From: an uncultured Gammaproteobacteria bacterium
Lineage (GTDB): Bacteria > Patescibacteriota > Microgenomatia > Levybacterales > GWA1-39-11
DNA: 64,000 bases
Reading direction: 5' to 3'
Assembly (NCBI GenBank): GCA_964651815.1
Contig: CAZYWG010000009.1
Coordinates: 601 to 64,600 of the forward strand
Made by a program: the position numbers and the translations under genes. This document shows, in pieces, positions 1,122-9,499 of this stretch (positions within the stretch are counted from its first letter, which is position 1; each line of letters opens with the position of its first letter). Under the pieces are notes generated by a model that was not told the origin of the DNA, did no database searches, and saw only the letters and a program-made list of their open reading frames with translations.

Positions 1122-2633
1122 GTGCCAAAAAATCTTAAACTTGGTTTTATTCTAGCAATTCTTTTCTCCTTTCTCCTTTCTTGTTGGTGGGTGTTACACG
1201 GCGACTTAACATTTTCCTCAGATATTGCACGTGACTTTTTACTTTTTTCAGAAATTGACCAGAAGCATATTGTGCTTATTGGACCAAAATCAAGCGTAGC
1301 CGGTCTTTTTCACGGCCCTTTATGGTTATATGTTAACTACCCTGCTTATTTAATAGGCCATGGAAATCCAGTGGTTGTAGCTTCTTTTTGGATTGTTTTG
1401 ATCATCTTATTCACGGGAGCCTGCTTTTATATAGGAAAAAAACTTTTTGGAGAGTTTACCGGATATTTATTTGCTTCAATGGTTGCGCTTTACATGTTTT
1501 TCCATTCTGGTGAATTTTTTAATCCATTAGGCGCCATGTTTTTAATTCCCGTTAACTTTTATCTACTCGTTAAATATCTTGAGAAATATAATATCAAATA
1601 TTTAATATGCTATATATTGCTCCTAGGATGTATCGTTCAGTTTGAATTGGCAATTGGAATTCCCTTGTTTATTCTTTCGGTTATTCTCTTGTTTATATTA
1701 ACGATCCGTGCAAAAAAACCTCTTCACCTATTAACTTTTTCTTTAATTCTCATTCCGCTAGCAAATTTCCTTGCGTTTGATATAAGGCATCAATTTATTC
1801 TTACCCACGGAGTTTTAAGATATATTTCGCCCGCAAGCGGCGATTCTGTGAAGTATAATCCATTCTTTATGATTTTTGACCGATTTAAGCTTTTAACAAT
1901 TAACGTTGAGATCCTAAGATTCGATCCTTATTACAGAAATGCGCTAACTGGCGCGATTTTTATATTCCTTTTGATATCGCAAATCAAGAATAATAAATTT
2001 AGGAAAACTTATTTGTTGTTTTTATACTTTTATGTGGGCTATTTTGTGACAACCTTTATAAATCGTGGCCCAATACTCTATTTTTACTTTTTCCCTTTCT
2101 TCCCATTTGTTTATTTAATTTTCTCATCATTCATAACATCAAAATACAAATATATTTTTCTTTTTATATTTGCTGTAATTTATTTTATGAACCTGCAATC
2201 GGCATTTAATGATATCTATGACTCAAGAACAAAGATTGGTATTGAGCAAACATCTTGGAAATTTTTGGATACAATGGCTAGCCGCGTCTATGAAGGTAGC
2301 GAAAAAGAATTTGGATATTTTGTCTATACACCTGACACAATTGCTTATGGCCCCAAATATGCCCTGCGTTATGAAGAGACGAAACATCCTGAAAAAAATG
2401 GTGCATACTTCACAAAAAAAAGAATAACTTATATTATTGTGGCTCCCCCGGCACCAAATAACCCCTACCTTTCATACACATGGTGGAGAAATGTTAGGGT
2501 TAAGATTGATAAAAATCCAACATCTGTTGTTATATTTCCAAATGGCTACAAAATAGAGAAATACGTCCTAACTGACACAGAAACTAAGATCCCTTATGAC
2601 CACGGAATAGACCCCGGACTTAATTTCAGATAA
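1122..2633 (+). CDS. Polytopic membrane protein, putative GT-C fold glycosyltransferase (PMT/ArnT-like)
   Basis: More than 10 predicted TM helices. The first loop carries SSDIARDFLLFSEID...GLFHGPLWLY, resembling the acidic and PPL-like motifs of GT39/GT83 enzymes. A soluble C-terminal domain follows. Confidence 0.45.
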   Translation: MPKNLKLGFILAILFSFLLSCWWVLHGDLTFSSDIARDFLLFSEIDQKHIVLIGPKSSVAGLFHGPLWLYVNYPAYLIGHGNPVVVASFWIVLIILFTGACFYIGKKLFGEFTGYLFASMVALYMFFHSGEFFNPLGAMFLIPVNFYLLVKYLEKYNIKYLICYILLLGCIVQFELAIGIPLFILSVILLFILTIRAKKPLHLLTFSLILIPLANFLAFDIRHQFILTHGVLRYISPASGDSVKYNPFFMIFDRFKLLTINVEILRFDPYYRNALTGAIFIFLLISQIKNNKFRKTYLLFLYFYVGYFVTTFINRGPILYFYFFPFFPFVYLIFSSFITSKYKYIFLFIFAVIYFMNLQSAFNDIYDSRTKIGIEQTSWKFLDTMASRVYEGSEKEFGYFVYTPDTIAYGPKYALRYEETKHPEKNGAYFTKKRITYIIVAPPAPNNPYLSYTWWRNVRVKIDKNPTSVVIFPNGYKIEKYVLTDTETKIPYDHGIDPGLNFR

Positions 2634-2823
2634 GCTTTTCTTTTACTTTTCTTACAGCTTTTTTATTGCTTTGTAATTGCGGTAGCATATCATCTTTATC
2701 AATCCATAAACTCTTTGACATTAATTAATATTTTGGGTTGCTTCGGTCATTTTGTGTCCGAAGTCAAGAAACTCTAAACTCATTAATATCGTTAAGAGTT
2801 TCTAAGAAAAGGGGGTGAAAAAA

Positions 2824-2967
2824 ATGGCTGATGATCAAAATCTAAAGCAAGATCAAGAAGAAAAACAAAAAGATGAAGAAGGTACCAAGGGTGGACAGGC
2901 AACAAGTCAAACGTCTGACAGTGACTTTGATTCAGATATGGGACTTGAAGAAGATTACGAAGACTAA
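2824..2967 (+). CDS. Small highly acidic protein (47 aa), hypothetical
   Basis: ATG at 2824 lies 6 nt after a strong SD (AAGGGGGTG). The product is MADDQNLKQDQEEKQKDEEGTKGGQATSQTSDSDFDSDMGLEEDYED* and is absent from the ORF track because it is under 60 aa. Confidence 0.45.
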   Translation: MADDQNLKQDQEEKQKDEEGTKGGQATSQTSDSDFDSDMGLEEDYED

Positions 2968-3002
2968 CTTAGGGAAAATGTAGTGAAGAACAGATGGAAA
3001 TA

Positions 3003-3497
3003 TTAATCCGTCTGTTTTTCGTACGGGAAAGCCTGTTGGTCAACCAGTGTTCTGAAAAACTTGACACTTTTCTCAAATGCCGGCGTGAAAGCTTTATGGT
3101 TATTTCGTCCAACGTGAAGTGTAATATGGAATGTTCCAATTGGGTCTCTCTTCCAATTCCAATCTGTTACCCCAGATACAGATACTTTTGATTCACCATT
3201 TGCAATCATTGCCTGACAAATGTATTCAAGCATTATGTGTTCAAACAGATGCGCCATTTCTGTTTTTTTAACTTCCACTGAAAAAGGGTAATTTTGTTCG
3301 TTAAAACAGCGGCTTTTAAACACAGTAGGGAGCATTTCGTTAAGCATTTTGTAAGTATGTGGAAGCTGGCTAGTATTTGTAACATCAGGCGCACATTGCA
3401 TTGTGATTTTGGTTTTGTAAATCCCCTTATATATCTTGAATATGAATTTTTTTTGTATAGAAAAAGTTGTAGGCTTGAAAGAGAATAAATCCGGCAT
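3003..3497 (-). CDS. Hypothetical protein (contains an HLFEH motif)
   Basis: ORF of 164 aa with a low-complexity Lys-rich N-terminus, so the true start may be an internal Met. AHLFEHIMLEY resembles the inverted zinc motif HxxEH, but the fold is unassigned. Confidence 0.45.
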   Translation of the reverse strand: MPDLFSFKPTTFSIQKKFIFKIYKGIYKTKITMQCAPDVTNTSQLPHTYKMLNEMLPTVFKSRCFNEQNYPFSVEVKKTEMAHLFEHIMLEYICQAMIANGESKVSVSGVTDWNWKRDPIGTFHITLHVGRNNHKAFTPAFEKSVKFFRTLVDQQAFPYEKQTD

Positions 3498-3537
3498 ATT
3501 TGACTATTTGGGGTTTAACACCCTTACGTAAATCTTA

Positions 3538-3567
3538 CGTATTTTTAATACTACGCCGATTTTTGCT
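3538..3567 (-). promoter_or_regulatory. Candidate sigma70-type promoter for the 3003..3497 gene
   Basis: On the minus strand, TTGACA (3562-3567), an 18-nt spacer and TAGTAT (3538-3543). A TACGTA-containing direct repeat/palindrome (cttacgtaaatcttacgta, 3513-3531) lies immediately downstream. Confidence 0.3.
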
Positions 3568-3578
3568 TCCCTGTCAAG

Positions 3579-3610
3579 CAATTGCATCAAAAAAGCAGGC
3601 GTCGTCATAG
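3579..3610 (-). terminator. Rho-independent terminator after the KGG-like gene
   Basis: AAAAAGCAGGC-gtcgtcata-GCCTGCTTTTT forms a perfect 6-bp GC stem flanked by an A5/T5 tract, directly downstream of the stop at 3632 on the minus strand. Confidence 0.55.
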
Positions 3611-3631
3611 CCTGCTTTTTAGTCCAACGTA

Positions 3632-3781
3632 TTACATGGAGATTTGAGTTACGTCCGGATTTTCAGAAGTATTATCCTTTCTTCTTTTTCTACTCGCAAG
3701 GCCACCCTTTCTTCCTGCGGCCGCATGTCCTTGGGAATCACCATGCCACCCTCTGCCTTTCTTTTGTCTTTGTGTTGCCAT
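3632..3781 (-). CDS. Small basic KGG-repeat stress-protein-like peptide (49 aa)
   Basis: Minus-strand ATG at 3781 gives MATQRQKKGRGWHGDSQGHAAAGRKGGLASRKRRKDNTSENPDVTQISM*. AGRKGG matches the KGG motif of YciG/GsiB-type proteins. It is absent from the ORF track (under 60 aa), and the plus-strand ORF 3644..3835 is judged spurious. Confidence 0.5.
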   Translation of the reverse strand: MATQRQKKGRGWHGDSQGHAAAGRKGGLASRKRRKDNTSENPDVTQISM

Positions 3782-3920
3782 AATTTTCACCTCGCTTTCC
3801 TTACTTCAATCATTTTAGTGTTTGAAGAACATTGATAATTATTTATCAACCAGTATGAATTTTATTAGCTACACTTTACAAAGCAATTAGAGAATAGTAA
3901 GAAAGCTGAAAGAAGAGGAC

Positions 3921-4217
3921 TTATTTTGATTTTCTGGTTTTATTTTTCGAGGATTTTTTTGCTTTTTTACCCTTTTTCTCTTCCACCAATTCAATTTTAA
4001 CAAGAGTTGGAGACATAACCGGGAAGATTCTATCAACCCCAACGCCTTCCAATTGCTGTCTCACAGTGATCATTTGGTTTGATCCAGCACCTTTAACGCT
4101 TAGAATCACTCCAACAAATGGTACGTTGCGCTCACGTTTACCTTCAATTACTTTTTGAATCACGCGTACGTTTTGCCCTTCTTTAAGTTGAAGTTCTGTA
4201 TTTAAATCCATAGACAA
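3921..4217 (-). CDS. rplS: 50S ribosomal protein L19 with a Lys-rich C-terminal tail
   Basis: GQNVRVIQKVIEGKRERNVPFVGVILSVKGAGSNQMITVRQQLEGVGVDRIFPVMSP matches the conserved L19 core. Confidence 0.8.
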   Translation of the reverse strand: MSMDLNTELQLKEGQNVRVIQKVIEGKRERNVPFVGVILSVKGAGSNQMITVRQQLEGVGVDRIFPVMSPTLVKIELVEEKKGKKAKKSSKNKTRKSK

Positions 4218-4311
4218 GTATTATACAGGATTTGAAGCAATTTTTAAAGAGGACTAGTTGTATCAGAGGTGTTTGAACGAAAATCGAAAAACTTATGTAA
4301 ATGTTTAATTC

Positions 4312-5985
4312 CTATTTTGTGCACGATTTGAGAAATTCCACAAAAAACGGGTGAGGCTTTAAGGGTCTACTTTTATATTCAGGGTGTCCTTGCGTACCCA
4401 TATAGAAGGGGTGCACATCTTTTGGAAGTTCAATTATTTCAACCAGATCTTCTTTAACAGAACGCGCGCTTATAACTAAACCCTTTGATTCAAAGTTGTT
4501 TGTAAAATCATTATTAAACTCATATCTGTGGCGGTGCCGCTCTGATGTCAAACCCGTCTTTTCATCGATTTGGTGGAATTCACGGTAAAAATCAAATGCG
4601 CGAGTCCCTTTTTTAACTATCGCTTCCCAGCCCCCAAGCCTCATGGTTCCTCCATATGCCCTGTTTTTCATATGTTCTTTTTGAGTTTCTATTATATGAA
4701 TTACAGGATGAGTTGTTTTGGGATCATTTTCAGTGGTATTAGCATCACTAAATCCAAGTATATCGCGAGCAAAGGAAATAACGGCAAGCTGCATGCCATA
4801 ACATAACCCAAGATATGGGATTTTATTTTCTCTAGCATATGAGGCTGAAGCTATCATTCCTTCTGCACCTCTTTCACCCCAACCAATTGGGACAATTAAC
4901 CCATCGGGCTTCCCAATTATCTTCTCAGCTCCCTCTTTTTCAACTTTCTCAGCATCAATCCAGTGGGTTTTTACTTCAACTCCATTAAACCAAGAAGCAT
5001 GCTCTATTGCATCAAAAAGCGCCGCATACGAATCTCGGATCTGATACTCCCCTGTACCAAAATATTTCCCAACAATCGCAAGGTTTATAATCTTTTTCTT
5101 GGGTGCTTTAATTTTTTCAACTAGCGCTTCCCAATCTGTGAGCTTTGGAGAAATAACTTTAAGACCGAGAGTTGTCAAAATTTTGCTGTCGAGCGACTGT
5201 TTATGCAAAATTAGGGGCACTTCATAGACTGTTTCAACGTCAGGATTTGAAATAATGTGGTCTCCCTCCATGTTGCAAAAAAGCGCAAAACGGTCGCGTC
5301 TTCTCTGGTCAAGATATTTTTCAGACCTTGCAACTATAAAATCAGGCTGAATACCCATTGAATTAAGAGTACGGACAGAAAGCTGGGTAGGCTTAGTTTT
5401 TGGCTCACCTAAATGTGAAGGCGTGGGGACATAGCTTACATGAACATGAATTACATCGCCGGGATTTTTTAGAGTCATAATCCTGCTCGCTTCATAGTAA
5501 AAAACATTTTGATATTCGCCGGCTGTCCCACCTAGCTCAATCATTACAATATCAGCATCTTTTTTCTTACCTAGCGAAACAATACGTGAAATAATTTCGT
5601 CAGTTATATGCGGAATTGCCTCAACGTCTTCACCGTTGTATTCAAAACGCCTTTCACGGTCAATTACGGTCTGATAAATCCTCCCCATTGTGACAAAATT
5701 ATCAATTCCCATATCTTCATCCAAAAACTTTTCATATGACCCTATATCCATGTCTCCTTCTGTCCCGTCTTCACACAAAAAAGGGTCCCCGTGCTCTATT
5801 GGATTAATTGTGCCTGCGTCTAGATTTAGATAGTTCTCAAATTTGATCGGAGCAACTTTGTAGCCTGCGGATTTGAGTAAAAGCGCGATTGAAGCAGAAG
5901 TTATACCTTTACCGATACCTGAAATGACCCCACCGGAGACAAAAATGTATTTAGTATGTTTTGTAGCAGAATTCTTGAGCGGCAC
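4312..5985 (-). CDS. pyrG: CTP synthase
   Basis: YIFVSGGVISGIGKG P-loop-like N-terminus, the GATase LCYGMQ motif and GTQGHPEYKSRP at the C-terminus. The start codon at 5985 is GTG. Confidence 0.95.
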   Translation of the reverse strand: MPLKNSATKHTKYIFVSGGVISGIGKGITSASIALLLKSAGYKVAPIKFENYLNLDAGTINPIEHGDPFLCEDGTEGDMDIGSYEKFLDEDMGIDNFVTMGRIYQTVIDRERRFEYNGEDVEAIPHITDEIISRIVSLGKKKDADIVMIELGGTAGEYQNVFYYEASRIMTLKNPGDVIHVHVSYVPTPSHLGEPKTKPTQLSVRTLNSMGIQPDFIVARSEKYLDQRRRDRFALFCNMEGDHIISNPDVETVYEVPLILHKQSLDSKILTTLGLKVISPKLTDWEALVEKIKAPKKKIINLAIVGKYFGTGEYQIRDSYAALFDAIEHASWFNGVEVKTHWIDAEKVEKEGAEKIIGKPDGLIVPIGWGERGAEGMIASASYARENKIPYLGLCYGMQLAVISFARDILGFSDANTTENDPKTTHPVIHIIETQKEHMKNRAYGGTMRLGGWEAIVKKGTRAFDFYREFHQIDEKTGLTSERHRHRYEFNNDFTNNFESKGLVISARSVKEDLVEIIELPKDVHPFYMGTQGHPEYKSRPLKPHPFFVEFLKSCTK

Positions 5986-5990
5986 GATTT

Positions 5991-5999
5991 ATACTATCA
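5991..5999 (-). promoter_or_regulatory. Extended -10 element (TGATAGTAT) 5 nt upstream of the pyrG GTG start
   Basis: Plus-strand atactatca reverse-complements to TGATAGTAT. The spacing implies a leaderless or near-leaderless transcript. Confidence 0.3.
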
Positions 6000-6090
6000 A
6001 AAAGCTCTTAAAGAGTCAATAATTAATCCTATACCTTTGCAATCTGATACCTTGCAAATTATTCTTTACACGGGGAAGAATAATGCATGT

Positions 6091-6139
6091 GAGAGTTTCT
6101 TTTTTGTGTTAATCTTTTAAACTCTCATTTCTTTCTTTG
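6091..6139 (+). terminator. Orphan terminator-like hairpin followed by a T-tract
   Basis: GAGAGTTT (6091-6098) and AAACTCTC (6119-6126) form an 8-bp stem with ATTTCTTTCTTT after it. No plus-strand gene lies upstream. A 9-codon ORF (ATG 6083..TAA 6112, MHVRVSFLC) with the SD GGGGAAG overlaps the stem. Confidence 0.3.
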
Positions 6140-6546
6140 CATAATTTTTACTTTGTTTAAAGTATGATTTGTCGTTTTTATACCCTTTGTTTTTACACAG
6201 TATAAAGACGAAGTTTTTTAAAATATATCTTTAAAATTTGACAATTTCTAAACCTATACGTATGTACAGCGCAAACCTCTTTTAAGTTAATGTGTAAGTT
6301 AAGATTTCACAACAATTTTCTACTTAACGATACATGGTTTTTAATTTGTCTTTCCAGACTTTTAAGAGTTATCTATTTTGTGTAAGTTACTATTCAGTTA
6401 TTGATTGTTAAGAATTGTATATATTTTATGTATTTATTGACGTTAATCTTCCTAGCTTATTCTATTTTGAATCCCTTTACTTATATTTATATAAGGATAT
6501 ATACGTAGTGATTTATATTATTTTAGCTTCATTTTCATCGATTTTT

Positions 6547-6575
6547 GGTAGACATAAGCGTCTACCGTTTTTGTG
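6547..6575 (+). terminator. Orphan terminator-like hairpin
   Basis: GGTAGAC-ataagc-GTCTACC is a perfect 7-bp stem followed by GTTTTTGTG. It sits inside a gene-free AT-rich region. Confidence 0.35.
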
Positions 6576-6660
6576 ACTTTCTATATCTATATTTATATAT
6601 TGAATTTAAGGATGACCATTTTTAACGATCAGCTTTAATTTTACTAAAAAAGCTGTATTA

Positions 6661-6850
6661 GGGGCCCATCCAACATACGTTGAATTACTATCCCACATAC
6701 AAACTGAGACTGAACGGTCGAGGGGCCGAATCCCGTGGTCCCTTGAAAATAACTTGAGCGGGGTACGAGAATTGGACTCGCTTCTCTTCCTTGGGAAGGA
6801 AGTATACTACCGGTGTACTAACCCCGCGAATTTAAATATTTTATATTTTT
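6661..6850. ncRNA. GC-rich structured element, candidate small ncRNA of undetermined class
   Basis: A sharp GC island lies in an otherwise AT-rich 880-bp non-coding gap. GGGGCC (6661-6666 and 6722-6727) can pair with GGUCCC (6737-6742). GCGGGGUAC (6758-6766) pairs with GUAC-uaa-CCCCGC (6815-6827), enclosing the hairpins CGAG-aauugga-CUCG and CUUCCUU-ggg-AAGGAAG. A U-rich tract follows at 6828-6850. Confidence 0.3.
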
Positions 6851-6866
6851 GGTAAATGAAACGCAA

Positions 6867-7472
6867 TTAGCGGGGAAGGATAAATTTGTTACCTGCATGA
6901 ATAAGGTCGGGGTTTGCTAAGTGGTTTGCCTGCGCGATCTCAACCCACTTGTATCCGTCTCCATATGCACGTACTGCTATGGTCCAAAGATTATCCCCAC
7001 GCACGACTGTATATGAATTCTCTACTATTTTCTCTTGAGGCGGGACATTTTGCATAAGGGTTTGAGGTTCCGGCGTTGGGCTTACAACCGGTCTTGGAGT
7101 GATTGTAAGTGGAACGTTTGGTACAACAATCTTGGTCCCTTGTTCAATTTCATCCGGATTCATAATATTATTTACAACGGCAAGCTTTGTCCATTGGTAA
7201 CCGTCATTATAAATTTTTTGCGAAATTGTCCAAAGACTATCCCCCTCTTGAACTACATAAGTTTTGTTTTCTGCTATTCTAAATGTTTGAACACCAGGTT
7301 CGCCAACCGTCCCTGTTTTACGCATTACGCTTACGCCTAAAAAAGCAACAATACAAAGAACAATTACTGTTATTGCGCCATACAAAAGACTTGCGTATGA
7401 ATAGCTGGATTTTTTTACTTGACTTCTAGAAGACTTACTTAAATTCTTTGATGATCTGCCGCGCTTTGCCAT
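6867..7472 (-). CDS. LysM-domain peptidoglycan-binding protein (N-terminal TM anchor, two LysM repeats, Pro/Thr-rich linker)
   Basis: Two repeats read YVVQEGDSLWTISQKIYNDGYQWTKLAVVNNIMNPDEIEQGTKIVVP and YTVVRGDNLWTIAVRAYGDGYKWVEIAQANHLANPDLIHAGNKFILP. A hydrophobic helix follows the Lys/Ser-rich N-terminus. Confidence 0.8.
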   Translation of the reverse strand: MAKRGRSSKNLSKSSRSQVKKSSYSYASLLYGAITVIVLCIVAFLGVSVMRKTGTVGEPGVQTFRIAENKTYVVQEGDSLWTISQKIYNDGYQWTKLAVVNNIMNPDEIEQGTKIVVPNVPLTITPRPVVSPTPEPQTLMQNVPPQEKIVENSYTVVRGDNLWTIAVRAYGDGYKWVEIAQANHLANPDLIHAGNKFILPR

Positions 7473-7501
7473 AAATAATATTCCTTGGGCAGAATCACTA
7501 A

Positions 7502-7552
7502 AATATAAACTTTGAGATGTGGTTTGTCAACCCCGATTAAATCGGGGTTGAC
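7502..7552 (-). promoter_or_regulatory. Promoter for the LysM gene, overlapped by a perfect 13-bp inverted repeat
   Basis: On the minus strand, TTGACA (7525-7530), a 17-nt spacer and TATATT (7502-7507), about 30 nt before the ATG at 7472. The inverted repeat GTCAACCCCGATT-a-AATCGGGGTTGAC (7526-7552) contains the -35 box. It also sits 30 nt past the tRNA-Asp 3' end and may act as the tRNA terminator. Confidence 0.45.
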
Positions 7553-7584
7553 ACCAATTTAAAGTGAGTCAATTTAAAAAATTG

Positions 7585-7658
7585 CGGGAGCGGCGGGACT
7601 CGGACCCGTGACCTCCTCCGTGACAGGGAGGCGCTCTAACCAACTGAGCTACGCCCCC
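7585..7658 (-). tRNA. tRNA-Asp (anticodon GTC)
   Basis: The reverse complement GGGGGCGTAGCTCAGTTGGTTAGAGCGCCTCCCTGTCACGGAGGAGGTCACGGGTCCGAGTCCCGCCGCTCCCG folds as a cloverleaf. The acceptor stem is 7 bp (one G-U pair), the D-arm is GCTC/GAGC, the anticodon stem is CCTCC/GGAGG and the loop is CTGTCAC. The T-loop reads TCCGAGT (C at position 55) and no CCA is encoded. Confidence 0.8.
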
Positions 7659-7732
7659 AAAATTAATTTGGGAGATCCTAATTTTAACAAATTGTTGAAG
7701 TTGAAGCAATCGTGAGATAAAATATCTTTGAG

Positions 7733-9499
7733 ATGACTAACCAAGATGTTGCAAAAATTCTCAGGAATGTTGCTGCTGCATTTTCTATAAAAGATGAGAA
7801 GAAGTTTATTTTCCAACTTTTGGCTTATCAAAAAGCAGCAGATACTATTTCACACCTCCCAACAGAATTAGAAGATTTGCTTAAAACTGGAGACAAAATT
7901 CCGGGGATTGGCACTTCAATACGCGCGCACCTTGAAGAACTTTACAAAAAAGGTCATGTGAAACATTTTGATGATATTTTAAAAGAGATACCTCCATCTG
8001 TTTTTCCGCTTCTTGATGTAACAGGCATGGGCCCTAAAAAAGCTTATAAACTTGTTGAAGCGCTAAAACTCAAAAATGAAAAAACTATATTTGAAGATTT
8101 AAAAAAAGCTGCAACTGACGGACGAATTGCAACACTCGAGACATTTGGCGAAAAATCCCAAAGCGATATCTTGCGTGCACTAGGTGAATTTGAACAAGGA
8201 AAAGTAAAGTCCAACAGAATGCCTTTACCTTATGCGTTTGAACTTGCTAAAAAAATCGAAGAATATCTAAAAGGGTATAAAGATGTTAAGGAAGTATTTC
8301 CGCTAGGGTCATTAAGGCGCATGCGCGACACCATTGGGGATCTTGATTTTGCTGTTGCGACCCGCGACCCACAAGGCTTGATAGAACACTTTGTGAAGTA
8401 CCCAAATATTGAAAGAGTCATTGAAAAAGGGCCAACATCCTCTTCAATTTTAGTCACCGGTGGACGTCAAGTTGACTTAATTGCTCAAACTCCAGATACA
8501 TTTGGATCACTTCTACAGCATTTTACAGGCTCGAAATATCATAATGTAGCTCTTCGCGAATATTCCTTAAAACACGGCTGGTCTCTTTCTGAAAAGGGTG
8601 TAAAGCTTTTAAAACAAAAGGGGCAACCTATGAAAAATTTCAAAACTGAAGATGAATTTTACAAATTTCTAGGAATGCAAACACCTCCTCCAGAAATTAG
8701 AGAAAATAAAGGCGAGATTGATCTTGCTTTAAAACACCAACTTCCTAAACTAGTTCAACTCTCAGATATTAAAGGCGATTTACATATTCATTCATCTTTT
8801 CCAATAGAACCTTCTCACGACATGGGAAAAAATTCTATGGAAGAAATGCTGTCTTACGCTAAAAAACTCGGATACGAATATCTTGCTTTCTCAGAACATA
8901 ATCCCAATTCAATGCTTACTCGCGACAAAACTTATTCGATTCTAGAAAAACGAAAAAAGAAAATTGAACAAATTATCGCGAGTAATAAAAGTATACGAGT
9001 ACTAAATATGCTTGAAGTTGATATTTTGCCAAGCGGTGAATTGGCAATTGATGATAAGGCACTTGAGTATATTGATGGCGCAATTGTCTCCATCCATAGC
9101 GTATTTAAAACCCCTAAATTAGAAATGACCGAGCGAGTCTTAAAAGGCTTATCGCACCCTAAAGCTCGTATACTTGCCCACCCAAGCGGAAGATTAATTA
9201 ATCAAAGAGATGGATATCAAATAGATTACGACAAAATATTTGATTTTTGTGCAAAGAATAACAAAGCCATAGAAATAAATGCTTGGCCAACAAGACTTGA
9301 CCTAACGGATTCGCTAGTTTATGAAGCAAGAAAGTTTGGCATTAAATTTACGATTGACACAGATTCTCATGCAACCAGCCACATGGACAATATGTTTTAT
9401 GGTGTAGCTGTTGCACGCCGCGGCTGGTGCGAACCAAAGGATATTTTAAACACATGGTCTTATGAAAAGTTGCATAAGTGGCTAACAGATTATAGTTAA
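7733..9499 (+). CDS. polX: DNA polymerase X family protein with a C-terminal PHP phosphoesterase domain
   Basis: N-terminal helix-hairpin-helix segments ([20 protein letters not shown]), the Pol-beta-like nucleotidyltransferase motif [17 protein letters not shown] and a PHP domain (GDLHIHSSF...HPSGRL...DTDSHA). Confidence 0.85.

What the first reader, a model, noticed from the sequence alone, without database searches (positions are those of the whole stretch)
5986..6866. An 880-bp gene-free AT-rich gap with two orphan plus-strand terminator hairpins and a GC-rich multi-hairpin element
In a genome where neighbouring genes overlap, 880 bp without any ORF of 60 aa or more in six frames is exceptional. 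Two hairpins followed by T-tracts lie on the plus strand with no plus-strand gene upstream (6091-6139, and a perfect GGTAGAC/GTCTACC stem at 6547-6575). That suggests small RNAs are transcribed here. A 170-nt GC island (6661-6830) folds into several mutually supporting helices and ends in a U-rich tract. The helices include GCGGGGUAC/GUACuaaCCCCGC, CUUCCUU-GGG-AAGGAAG and GGGGCC/GGUCCC. I could not match them to tRNA, tmRNA, RNase P or SRP consensus motifs. A tiny SD-led ORF (MHVRVSFLC) overlaps the first hairpin like a leader peptide.
Basis: seen in the sequence. Interest (0 to 1): 0.6.

Follow-up and report, generated by a model that had tools for sequence, protein, structure and literature searches.

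The report
Misread tRNA gene plus filler DNA
The "mystery structured RNA" is mostly an ordinary glycine tRNA gene read on the wrong strand; beside it lie a probable broken tRNA fragment and about 630 bases of non-conserved AT-rich filler, in a spot where related bacteria keep swapping small accessory genes.

Summary
The 881-bp ORF-free gap is real. It is the largest in a ~93.5%-coding window from a Levybacteria-like (CPR/Patescibacteria) genome, and two independent assemblies reproduce it exactly. It is not gene-free. 6756-6827 on the minus strand is a standard tRNA-Gly(CCC) gene (Rfam 55 bits; ARAGORN; conserved in 69 relatives). The rest of the GC island (6660-6745, plus strand) is probably a tRNA-derived fragment: its 3' half is tRNA-like (p~0.01) and a lineage model scores it 9-10 bits (E~0.03-0.05), but the D and anticodon arms are missing and no standard tool calls it. 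The 630-bp AT-rich stretch (6028-6659) matches nothing in 160 relatives, Pfam, Rfam, phages or plasmids, and its open frames are no longer than random. It fills a slot that is either empty (20-252 bp) or holds unrelated accessory ORFs in relatives. pyrG has its own invariant promoter abutting its start codon. The plus strand is T-rich, so T-tracts after hairpins are near-default; only the 6546-6575 hairpin is modestly terminator-like. No evidence supports novel sRNAs or a leader peptide. Verdict: ordinary, low interest.

The parts
6756..6827 (-). tRNA-Gly(CCC) gene, 'type A' (72 nt, no encoded CCA); G1-C72, C2-G71, G3-C70 and U73 are visible in the sequence
   Evidence: Rfam RF00005 55.1 bits against a gathering score of 29. 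ARAGORN calls tRNA-Gly, anticodon ccc. The lineage model scores 89.9 bits and the type-A model 100.1 bits. Orthologues sit beside pyrG in 69 relatives.
6660..6745 (+). Probable tRNA-derived fragment or relic, tail-to-tail with the live tRNA. Acceptor-like helix AGGGGCC (6660-6666) / GGTCCCT (6737-6743). Variable loop plus T-arm CGGTC GAGGG GCCGAAT CCCGT (6715-6736). U-CCC-A at 6691-6695. D and anticodon arms are not formed, there are ~13 extra nt, and the isotype is ambiguous (Gly type B or Asp).
   Evidence: Local alignment to real tRNAs scores 29 against shuffles of 18.9 +/- 2.5, max 26. Lineage CM 9.4 bits, E~0.05; type-B CM 10.3 bits, E~0.03; type-A CM 3.8 bits. Only one unrelated site in the whole window scores as high. 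The 3' half is similar to tRNA 3' halves at p~0.01; the 5' half has no sequence similarity. Rfam tRNA and relaxed ARAGORN do not call it.
6028..6659 (.). AT-rich (26% GC) non-conserved spacer, A-rich on the minus strand. It fills the variable slot between tRNA-Gly and the pyrG promoter.
   Evidence: No blastn or tblastx match in 160 relatives. No Pfam hit in six frames. No phage or plasmid match. No copy elsewhere in the window and no DnaA boxes. Longest open frame is 54 codons against shuffles of 58.8 +/- 14.3.
6546..6575 (+). Terminator-like hairpin: 7-8 bp stem GGTAGAC/GTCTACC, 6-nt loop, then TTTTTGTG. It is an orphan, with no credible plus-strand gene upstream.
   Evidence: Found by the terminator scan. 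Fold z -2.9 on + and -6.2 on -. A strict equivalent occurs in 1.4% of shuffles, with criteria set post hoc. Not conserved. The 53-codon ORF that ends at it has no homologue.
6090..6127 (+). Weak AT-rich hairpin: 9-bp stem, 20-nt loop, followed by TTTCTTTCTTT. Overlaps the mini-ORF MHVRVSFLC.
   Evidence: Inverted repeat I16. Fold z -1.8 on + and -2.4 on -. A stem this long with a loop of up to 20 nt occurs in 9.8% of shuffles. The loop is too long for a canonical intrinsic terminator (established knowledge).
5991..6019 (-). pyrG promoter: -35 TTGACT (6019-6014), 17-nt spacer with TG, -10 TAGTAT (5996-5991), then 5 nt to the GTG start at 5985
   Evidence: Promoter scan. TTGAC and TTTGATAnTATAA(A/G)TCGTGCC are invariant in 12 relatives. 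blastn conservation of 5986-6027 with L001, L002, L006, L007 and L011.
6838..6866 (-). Possible tRNA-Gly promoter (TTGCGT, 17 nt, TAAAAT; the -10 ends 10 nt before tRNA position 1). Read by eye.
   Evidence: Sequence reading. It is below the scan tool's threshold. The 17 nt upstream of the tRNA are 89-91% conserved in L071 and L049. This is inference only.
4312..5985 (-). pyrG (CTP synthase), downstream flank of the gap
   Evidence: Pfam CTP_synth_N 3.9e-96 and GATase 8e-30.
6867..7472 (-). LysM-domain protein, upstream flank of the gap
   Evidence: Pfam LysM 7.1e-22. Synteny LysM, tRNA-Gly, pyrG in relatives.

Best explanation
On the minus strand the locus reads: LysM gene, tRNA-Gly(CCC) gene (6827-6756), variable slot, pyrG promoter (6019-5991), pyrG. 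Next to it, 11 nt from the tRNA's 3' end, lies an inverted tRNA-derived fragment (6660-6745, plus strand). That fragment keeps a tRNA-like variable loop, T-arm and acceptor helix but has lost the D and anticodon arms, so it is most likely a dead relic.

The remaining ~630 bp of AT-rich DNA is lineage-specific, non-coding filler. It occupies a slot that in relatives is either empty or holds one or more unrelated accessory genes. I read it as the scar of gene turnover at a tRNA-adjacent hot spot: either an inserted segment whose gene has decayed beyond recognition, or acquired non-coding DNA.

Shown: the tRNA-Gly gene and its conservation; the invariant pyrG promoter sequence that abuts the start codon; and the lack of conservation or coding signal in the spacer. 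Inferred: that the tRNA is expressed from a promoter of its own, that the fragment is tRNA-derived and dead, that the spacer has no sequence-specific function, and that the plus-strand hairpins with T-tracts are mainly by-products of a T-rich plus strand. The 6546-6575 hairpin may be a fossil or a still-active terminator.
For: tRNA. Orthologues and synteny.

Fragment: alignment score above all 100 shuffles; 21/23 identity of variable loop plus T-arm to the L069 tRNA-Gly; the CM hits the exact predicted boundaries at E~0.03-0.05 and prefers the type-B model; only one equal-scoring unrelated site in 128 kb; 3' half p~0.01. Relatives carry analogous orphan tRNA fragments beside the same tRNA-Gly: L001, L024, L040, L055, L059, L061.

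Slot variability: of 69 relatives, 36 have 20-252 bp and 33 have 456 bp or more, always with an ORF of at least 110 codons. The cargo is unrelated between lineages: IMP-cyclohydrolase-like, AHSA1, GNAT, GDPD, HAD, sortase and unknowns.

Spacer: no match in relatives, Pfam, phages or plasmids; open frames are random-like; GC of 26% is similar to other intergenic spacers at 25-30%.

pyrG promoter: invariant and adjacent to the start codon, so the spacer is not needed for it. T-tract bias.
Against: A streamlined ~1-Mb CPR-type genome would be expected to delete 630 bp of useless DNA, so its persistence hints at recent origin or some function. No relative closer than 85% pyrG identity was available, so conservation within the species or genus is untested. 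The 6546-6575 hairpin with a GC-containing stem and T-tract is rare in shuffles (1.4%). The fragment's acceptor helix is perfectly paired (7/7) although its core is gone, which is odd for random decay. Its 5' strand has no tRNA sequence similarity, its acceptor is not Gly-like, and standard tRNA tools reject it. No remnant of any relative's cargo gene or GIY-YIG element is detectable, so the decayed-insertion history is inferred, not shown.
Confidence: 0.62

Rival explanations
1. One or more lineage-specific small RNAs are transcribed from the plus strand of the spacer. One candidate is a ~70-nt RNA from a TTGAAT-17-TATAAG promoter-like site (6467-6495) to the 6546-6575 terminator. Another is a transcript from GTGACT-17-TATATT (6573-6601) running through the tRNA-like fragment and antisense to tRNA-Gly.
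For: Terminator-like hairpin on the plus strand, rare in shuffles under strict criteria. Promoter-like hexamers lie upstream, and a 29-nt promoter-like repeat occurs twice, 106 nt apart.
Against: Promoter-like sites are not enriched: 6 found against 4.7 +/- 2.4 expected. T-tracts are the default on this strand. No Rfam family matches at E<=10. No homologous sequence exists in 160 relatives, so there is no covariation and no conservation. The TATAAG -10 was read by eye and fails the tool's criteria.
Confidence: 0.12
2. The spacer is a recently pseudogenised cargo gene on the minus strand, like the ORFs relatives carry in this slot. Its reading frame has been destroyed.
For: Slot size (770 bp) falls in the occupied class of relatives. 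The minus strand is A-rich (AT skew +0.23), the polarity of sense strands in this genome (mean +0.07, maximum +0.37).
Against: No six-frame similarity to any relative's slot ORF or to Pfam. The longest open frame is no longer than in shuffled sequence. GC has already fallen to intergenic level. If it ever was a gene, it is decayed beyond recognition and the loss is not recent.
Confidence: 0.12
3. A small hydrophobic peptide gene, like a type I toxin, lies on the plus strand. It would be the 53-codon ORF 6415-6576, or its internal GTG-start 22-aa version MIYIILASFSSIFGRHKRLPFL preceded by AAGGA. It ends exactly at the terminator hairpin.
For: The ORF stop lies in the T-tract after the hairpin. 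Its codon score of 0.17 is above the 95th percentile of non-frame pieces. It has an SD-like AAGGA 10 nt upstream and a hydrophobic sequence with a basic C-terminus (sequence reading).
Against: No homologue among 5.8 billion clustered proteins. T-rich DNA translates into F/I/L/Y-rich peptides by default. The codon model was not trained against AT-rich intergenic DNA. There is no conservation.
Confidence: 0.04
4. The region is a cis-regulatory leader, attenuator or riboswitch controlling pyrG, or the mini-ORF MHVRVSFLC is a leader peptide.
For: pyrG is regulated by leader-based attenuation in some Firmicutes (general knowledge). Hairpins lie upstream of pyrG.
Against: The invariant promoter sits 5 nt from the pyrG start codon in all 12 close relatives, which leaves no leader. 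Relatives with only 20-85 bp between tRNA and pyrG lack any such region. The hairpin T-tracts and the mini-ORF are on the opposite strand from pyrG, and no plus-strand gene follows them. Rfam finds nothing.
Confidence: 0.03
5. The region is a DNA-level element: a replication origin, a repeat-family mobile element (MITE or IS remnant), or an att-flanked integrated element.
For: AT-rich. Short repeats: TGTGTAAGTTA twice and a 29-nt repeat twice. A 9-nt direct repeat CCGCTCAAG at the tRNA 3' end and at pyrG codons 2-4 brackets the slot.
Against: No DnaA box with 1 mismatch or fewer in the gap, no GC-skew switch, and no copies elsewhere in the window. The bracket repeat is no better than the tRNA-Asp control across 24 loci, and shuffles reach it. 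No phage, plasmid or viral-contig match. No integrase or transposase remnant.
Confidence: 0.03

Closest known systems
Bacterial tRNA-Gly(CCC) genes (Rfam RF00005)
   Same: 6756-6827 (minus strand) has a full cloverleaf, the CCC anticodon with U33 and A37, and G1-C72/C2-G71/G3-C70/U73. It is orthologous and syntenic in 69 relatives.
   Different: Nothing essential. There is no encoded CCA, and the T-loop reads UCCAAUU (C at position 55 instead of U), a variant shared with some relatives.
tRNA gene fragments or pseudo-tRNAs left beside tRNA genes by integration or rearrangement (for example van der Gulik et al. 2023, PMC9897764)
   Same: 6660-6745 has a tRNA-like 3' half (variable loop, T-arm, acceptor 3' strand) directly beside a live tRNA. 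Relatives carry clear orphan halves of the same tRNA-Gly.
   Different: It is inverted relative to the live tRNA. It is not an exact duplicate of the live gene. Its isotype is ambiguous (Gly type B or Asp). It keeps a paired acceptor-like helix whose 5' strand has no tRNA sequence similarity. No integrase or element is recognisable next to it.
tRNA-adjacent hypervariable regions or genomic islets
   Same: The slot downstream of tRNA-Gly holds different unrelated accessory genes in different lineages and is empty in others.
   Different: The slot is tiny (one or two genes, 0.5-3.5 kb), has no integrase, and shows no consistent att repeats. In this window it holds no gene at all.
Rho-independent (intrinsic) terminators
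   Same: 6546-6575 has a 7-8 bp stem with 4 G-C pairs, a 6-nt loop and a T-tract.
   Different: There is no transcription unit upstream on that strand, it is not conserved, and the T-tract is expected from strand composition. The 6090-6127 hairpin has a 20-nt loop and only 3 G-C pairs.
Free-standing GIY-YIG homing endonucleases in tRNA gene clusters (for example phage T4 SegB, PMC2330249). Relevant to the relatives, not to the window.
   Same: In L001, L059, L061, L066 and L056 a small GIY-YIG ORF sits immediately next to a tRNA gene, with a duplicated tRNA segment on its far side.
   Different: These are in CPR chromosomes. The ORF overlaps the first ~10 nt of the live tRNA, and the element appears to carry a replacement tRNA half. 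No such element or remnant is present in this window.

Membership tests
tRNA (Rfam RF00005), for 6756-6827 minus strand | Covariance-model score at or above the curated gathering threshold (29 bits), full-length cloverleaf | tested here: met
   55.1 bits, model positions 1-71/71. ARAGORN calls tRNA-Gly ccc.
tRNA (Rfam RF00005), for 6756-6827 minus strand | Glycine identity set: G1-C72, C2-G71, G3-C70, U73, anticodon C35 C36 (established knowledge of bacterial GlyRS recognition) | tested here: met
   The sequence GCGGGGU...ACCCCGC-U with anticodon CCC is read directly from the alignment. Aminoacylation itself was not tested.
tRNA (Rfam RF00005), for 6756-6827 minus strand | Orthologues conserved in relatives at the same locus | tested here: met
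   tRNA-Gly(CCC) lies upstream of pyrG in 69 relatives, with 46 distinct sequences.
tRNA gene (functional), for 6660-6745 plus strand | Complete cloverleaf recognised by general tRNA models | tested here: not met
   No Rfam tRNA hit at E<=10 on 121 bases. ARAGORN finds nothing, even with relaxed, pseudogene and intron options. The CM alignment skips the D and anticodon arms.
tRNA-derived fragment or pseudogene, for 6660-6745 plus strand | Significant similarity of part of the sequence to real tRNAs in tRNA register (variable loop, T-arm, acceptor) | tested here: met
   Score 29 against a shuffle maximum of 26. 21/23 identity to the L069 tRNA-Gly. CM 9.4-10.3 bits, E 0.03-0.05, at the predicted boundaries. 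3' half p~0.01.
tRNA-derived fragment or pseudogene, for 6660-6745 plus strand | Identifiable parent tRNA (isotype) or exact duplication of the neighbouring tRNA, as in classic att-type fragments | tested here: not met
   The 3' half matches Asp and Gly type B equally; the 5' half has no similarity. The acceptor AGGGGCC is absent from all 166 tRNAs held. The window has no exact 16-nt duplicate of any tRNA end.
Intrinsic terminator, for 6546-6575 plus strand | G+C-containing stem-loop followed by a U-tract | tested here: met
   The scan hit has 8 pairs, 4 G-C, a 6-nt loop and TTTTTGTG. Fold -11.2 kcal/mol, z -2.9.
Intrinsic terminator, for 6546-6575 plus strand | Lies at the 3' end of a transcription unit on the same strand | tested here: not met
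   There is no plus-strand ORF of 60 aa or more. The 53-codon ORF has no homologue. No Rfam RNA lies upstream. Transcription itself cannot be tested here.
Known structured bacterial RNAs (tmRNA, SRP, 6S, RNase P, riboswitches, all of Rfam 15) | Match to a curated covariance model | tested here: not met
   Only three tRNAs reach gathering score in the window. Nothing credible at E<=10 in 5800-7800 or 6640-6760. ARAGORN finds no tmRNA.
Leader-peptide attenuator (mini-ORF MHVRVSFLC plus hairpin) | A regulated structural gene downstream on the same strand | tested here: not met
   The next plus-strand gene starts at 7733, beyond minus-strand tRNA-Gly, LysM and tRNA-Asp.
Chromosomal replication origin (oriC) | Cluster of DnaA boxes, adjacent AT-rich unwinding element, GC-skew switch | tested here: not met
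   0 boxes with 1 mismatch or fewer in the gap against 21 scattered through the window; no skew inflection.
Integrated element bounded by att repeats at a tRNA 3' end | Direct repeat of the tRNA 3' end at the far boundary, beyond chance, plus an integrase or element genes | tested here: not met
   The 9-nt repeat CCGCTCAAG exists but is no better than the tRNA-Asp control across 24 loci, and shuffles reach it. No integrase-like frames. No phage, plasmid or viral match.
GIY-YIG tRNA-associated element (as seen in relatives L001, L059, L061) | GIY-YIG ORF or its remnant, conserved two-hairpin leader, duplicated tRNA half | tested here: not met
   nhmmer with the element profile hits only the live tRNA's 5' half. 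tblastn's best hit in the gap has E=2.5. The family HMM's best score is 2.3 bits, reached by 14% of shuffles.

The most novel reading that the evidence does not exclude
The tRNA fragment and the AT-rich spacer might not be inert. One option is that they are the footprint of, or a landing pad for, a tRNA-targeting mobile system. Relatives show a candidate: a ~380-nt GIY-YIG element that splits tRNA-Gly at the anticodon and rebuilds it with its own 5' half. Another option is that the plus strand encodes a lineage-specific small RNA that ends at the 6546-6575 terminator. A third is a transcript through the acceptor/T-arm minihelix (6660-6745) running antisense to tRNA-Gly and modulating it.
Probability: 0.12. 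Interest if true: 0.45.

Novelty: already known. Interest (0 to 1): 0.17.

Why it matters
For the finding as posed, it matters mainly as a correction. An apparently novel 170-nt structured RNA is a standard tRNA read on the wrong strand, which is a common trap when hairpins are judged on one strand only. The residual features (a tRNA-like fragment and a non-conserved AT-rich spacer) show that even very compact CPR genomes keep small hot spots of gene turnover beside tRNA genes. The comparison with relatives also turned up something possibly more interesting than the finding itself: small GIY-YIG elements that sit inside or against tRNA genes and duplicate part of the tRNA. These would explain why orphan tRNA halves, two sequence types and both orientations of tRNA-Gly occur at this locus across Levybacteria.

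Tried and rejected
1. Known RNA families: Rfam at gathering score over the whole window and at E<=10 over 5800-7800 and 6640-6760 gave only tRNAs.
2. Second functional tRNA at 6660-6745: rejected by Rfam and relaxed ARAGORN. It is kept only as a fragment.
3. Decayed copy of a relative's slot gene: blastn and tblastx against 160 loci and six-frame Pfam found nothing.
4. GIY-YIG remnant: one appealing hit (KTKGIKTT...LNKVKIMQRKK at 6193-6128) proved non-significant. A second candidate overlaps the same bases in another frame, and 14% of shuffles score as well.
5. Phage or plasmid origin: no match except the tRNA. Viral contigs contain neither the fragment's T-arm nor the hairpin.
6. oriC, repeat family or MITE: no DnaA boxes, no skew switch, no other copies.
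7. att-like bracket repeat CCGCTCAAG: no better than the control.
8. Small protein: the 53-codon ORF has no homologue, and codon scores are ambiguous.
9. Closer relatives for covariation: the genome and metagenome scans gave at best 85% and 82% pyrG identity. Exact-protein look-ups returned only the same strain.
10. Assigning the fragment to tRNA-Gly: its acceptor is not Gly-like and its 3' half fits Asp equally well.
11. pyrG leader or attenuator: the invariant promoter abuts the start codon.
Full report
**Where we are.** The flanking genes are pyrG (CTP synthase, 4312-5985, minus strand) and a LysM-domain protein (6867-7472, minus strand). The best pyrG matches in 185,579 species genomes are Levybacteria/Microgenomates-type Patescibacteria MAGs, at 85% amino-acid identity or less. 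The metagenome collection gave nothing closer (82%).

**Checking the observation.**
- The gap is real. No ORF of 60 aa or more lies in 5986-6866.
- It is the largest ORF-free stretch in a window that is ~93.5% coding: 881 bp, against 423 and 369 bp for the next two.
- GC falls to 24-27% across 6000-6600 and rises again at 6600-7050.
- Two independent Logan assemblies from different runs (L162, L163) are 100% identical to the window over 5972-7639/7611, so the sequence is not a mis-assembly.
- Both hairpins exist at the stated places.

**The GC island is mostly a tRNA.** Rfam at curated thresholds finds a tRNA at 6757-6827 on the minus strand (55.1 bits against a gathering score of 29). ARAGORN calls it tRNA-Gly, anticodon CCC. 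The plus-strand GGG is the complement of the CCC anticodon. This tRNA-Gly(CCC) sits between LysM and pyrG in 69 of the related loci.

**The rest of the island (6660-6755).**
- It does not fold better than shuffled sequence: z -1.4 on the plus strand and +0.3 on the minus strand.
- Read on the plus strand, it has a tRNA-like layout. AGGGGCC (6660-6666) pairs with GGTCCCT (6737-6743). CGGTC GAGGG GCCGAAT CCCGT (6715-6736) looks like a variable loop plus T-arm. U-CCC-A falls at canonical positions 33-37.
- Alignment to the 166 real tRNAs in the window and loci scores 29, against 18.9 +/- 2.5 (maximum 26) for shuffles. The best match is 21/23 to the tRNA-Gly(CCC) of L069.
- A covariance model built from 36 lineage tRNA-Gly(CCC) sequences hits exactly 6660-6745 on the plus strand at 9.4 bits, E~0.05. 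It pairs the acceptor and T-arm and skips the D and anticodon arms.
- In the whole window only one unrelated site scores as high.
- Relatives carry two sequence types of tRNA-Gly(CCC). A type-B-only model scores the fragment 10.3 bits (E~0.03) and a type-A-only model 3.8 bits. The live gene prefers type A, 100.1 against 76.3 bits.

Caveats on the fragment:
- Rfam's general tRNA model and relaxed ARAGORN do not call it.
- Only its 3' half has sequence similarity to tRNAs (p~0.01), and that half fits tRNA-Asp as well as Gly type B. The 5' half has none.
- Its A1-U72 acceptor is not Gly-like and is absent from every tRNA I hold.

I therefore call it a probable tRNA-derived fragment of uncertain isotype, not a tRNA.

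**The AT-rich 630 bp (6028-6659).**
- It has no blastn or tblastx match in 160 related loci at E<=1.
- It has no Pfam hit in six frames at E<=1.
- It has no phage, plasmid or viral-contig match.
- It has no copy elsewhere in the window, no DnaA boxes and no skew switch.
- Its longest open frame is 54 codons, against 58.8 +/- 14.3 in dinucleotide shuffles. No residual coding signal remains.
- The longest ORF (53 codons, plus strand) has no homologue in the 5.8-billion-cluster protein collection.

**What relatives have in the same place.** The tRNA-Gly to pyrG spacing is bimodal. In 36 loci it is 20-252 bp. In 33 loci it is 456 bp or more, and every one of those contains at least one ORF of 110 codons or more. 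These ORFs are mostly unrelated to each other. They include IMP-cyclohydrolase-like, AHSA1/SRPBCC, GNAT, GDPD, HAD and sortase proteins, and several of unknown function. The slot is therefore a small hot spot of accessory-gene turnover. The window is the only case of an occupied-size slot with no gene.

**pyrG does not need the spacer.** The ~40 nt upstream of pyrG are the only conserved non-coding block. Aligned across 12 relatives they show an invariant TTGAC (-35), then TTTGATAnTAT (an extended -10), 5 nt, and the GTG start. That leaves no room for a leader and argues against an attenuator or riboswitch.

**The "terminators".**
- On the plus strand of the spacer, 31% of all 8-nt windows already contain 5 or more T, against 3% on the minus strand. 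A T-tract after a plus-strand hairpin is therefore close to the default.
- The tool's scan finds 1 terminator-like site against 0.5 +/- 0.8 expected, and 6 promoter-like sites against 4.7 +/- 2.4.
- A perfect 7-bp stem occurs in 41% of shuffles. A 9-bp stem with a loop of up to 20 nt occurs in 9.8%.
- A GC-containing 7-bp stem plus a T-tract occurs in only 1.4% of shuffles. The 6546-6575 hairpin is thus modestly suggestive, with criteria I set after seeing it. The 6090-6127 hairpin is not.
- Neither hairpin has a transcription unit upstream. The mini-ORF MHVRVSFLC cannot be a leader peptide, because no plus-strand gene follows it before 7733.

**Explanation.** The most likely reading (confidence ~0.6) has three parts: an ordinary tRNA-Gly gene, a dead tRNA-derived fragment beside it, and lineage-specific non-coding filler left by turnover in a tRNA-adjacent variable slot. 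pyrG is driven by its own adjacent promoter. The tRNA, the promoter conservation and the absence of conservation or coding signal are shown. The turnover history and the inertness of the spacer are inferred. The main weakness is that no relative closer than 85% was available, so conservation within the species is untested. A second weakness is that a streamlined genome retaining 630 bp of useless DNA is somewhat surprising.

**Side observation in relatives.** Searching the loci with the tRNA-Gly model revealed extra low-scoring hits next to the live gene.
- In L001, L059 and L061 the first 34-35 nt of tRNA-Gly, up to the anticodon, are duplicated. The upstream orphan copy is followed by a conserved ~80-nt two-hairpin leader and then a 91-98-aa GIY-YIG ORF (Pfam PF01541). 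The ORF's stop codon lies inside the first 10 nt of a complete live tRNA-Gly.
- In L059 the orphan half is type A and the live gene is type B. This suggests that the element brings its own 5' half.
- Homologous ORFs sit against tRNA-Glu with a 12-nt 5' duplication (L066) or a 17-nt 3' duplication (L056).
- L024, L040 and L055 carry further orphan fragments.
- Three literature searches found no description of this arrangement. The nearest known cases are free-standing GIY-YIG homing endonucleases such as T4 SegB (PMC2330249) and integration-derived tRNA fragments (PMC9897764).
- The window contains no such element or detectable remnant. This is context for why tRNA fragments are common here, not an explanation proven for this window.

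**Verdict.** Novelty: already known. Interest is low.

Noticed in passing
L001:3051-3507, L061:2961-3413, L059:2986-3428 (also L066:7100-7524, L056:7248-7700): A ~380-nt element sits at tRNA genes in relatives. Its parts, in order, are: an orphan copy of tRNA-Gly nt 1-34/35 (up to the anticodon); a conserved two-hairpin leader; a 91-98-aa GIY-YIG ORF whose stop codon lies inside the first 10 nt of a complete live tRNA-Gly. In L059 the orphan half is type A and the live gene is type B, as if the element carries its own replacement half. Homologues sit at tRNA-Glu with 12-nt 5' or 17-nt 3' duplications. Three literature searches found no description of it.
   Followed up: partly
Relatives L001-L160, tRNA-Gly(CCC) next to pyrG: Two sequence types of tRNA-Gly(CCC) occupy the same locus: type A (72 nt, variable loop AGAA) and type B (73 nt, AGGTC). 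The gene is on the opposite strand from pyrG in L002, L003, L005, L006, L011, L044, L047 and L084. This implies repeated replacement or inversion of this tRNA gene among close relatives.
   Followed up: partly
window 5983-6019 (minus strand): The pyrG promoter (TTGACT, 17 nt with TG, TAGTAT) ends 5 nt before the GTG start codon, with no Shine-Dalgarno sequence. The block TTTGATAnTATAA(A/G)TCGTGCC is invariant in 12 relatives. This suggests a leaderless pyrG mRNA starting at or next to a GTG codon.
   Followed up: partly
window 6756-6827 and 7584-7658; many tRNAs in the loci: The T-loops read UCCAA or UCCGA, with C instead of the near-universal U (pseudouridine) at position 55. This occurs in the window's tRNA-Gly and tRNA-Asp, and in 20 of 72 tRNA-Gly and 9 of 55 tRNA-Asp genes of relatives.
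   Followed up: no
window 5972-6001: Logan contigs from two runs both end at the same 30-mer: L161 covers 2525-6001, and L162 and L163 start at 5972. The assembly graph therefore branches exactly at the pyrG start/promoter junction. This may mean a co-existing haplotype with different slot content.
   Followed up: no
window 5974-5982 and 6753-6761: A 9-nt direct repeat CCGCTCAAG occurs at the tRNA-Gly 3' end plus trailer and at pyrG codons 2-4, bracketing the whole slot. I tested it across 24 loci against a tRNA-Asp control and shuffles, and it is not beyond chance.
   Followed up: yes
L024:3430-3491, L040:3312 and 3403 and 2548, L055:3799-3839: Further orphan tRNA fragments lie next to live tRNA genes in relatives. 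L024 has a type-B relic with an internal deletion 1 nt after a live type-A tRNA-Gly. L040 has two orphan tRNA-Gly 5' ends and an orphan tRNA-Asp 3' end. L055 has a lone 5' half 11 nt upstream of the live gene.
   Followed up: partly
window 2634-3002 and 3498-3920: These are the next two largest ORF-free stretches in the window (369 and 423 bp, GC 34-38%). Rfam and the tRNA model find nothing there. I did not examine them otherwise.
   Followed up: no
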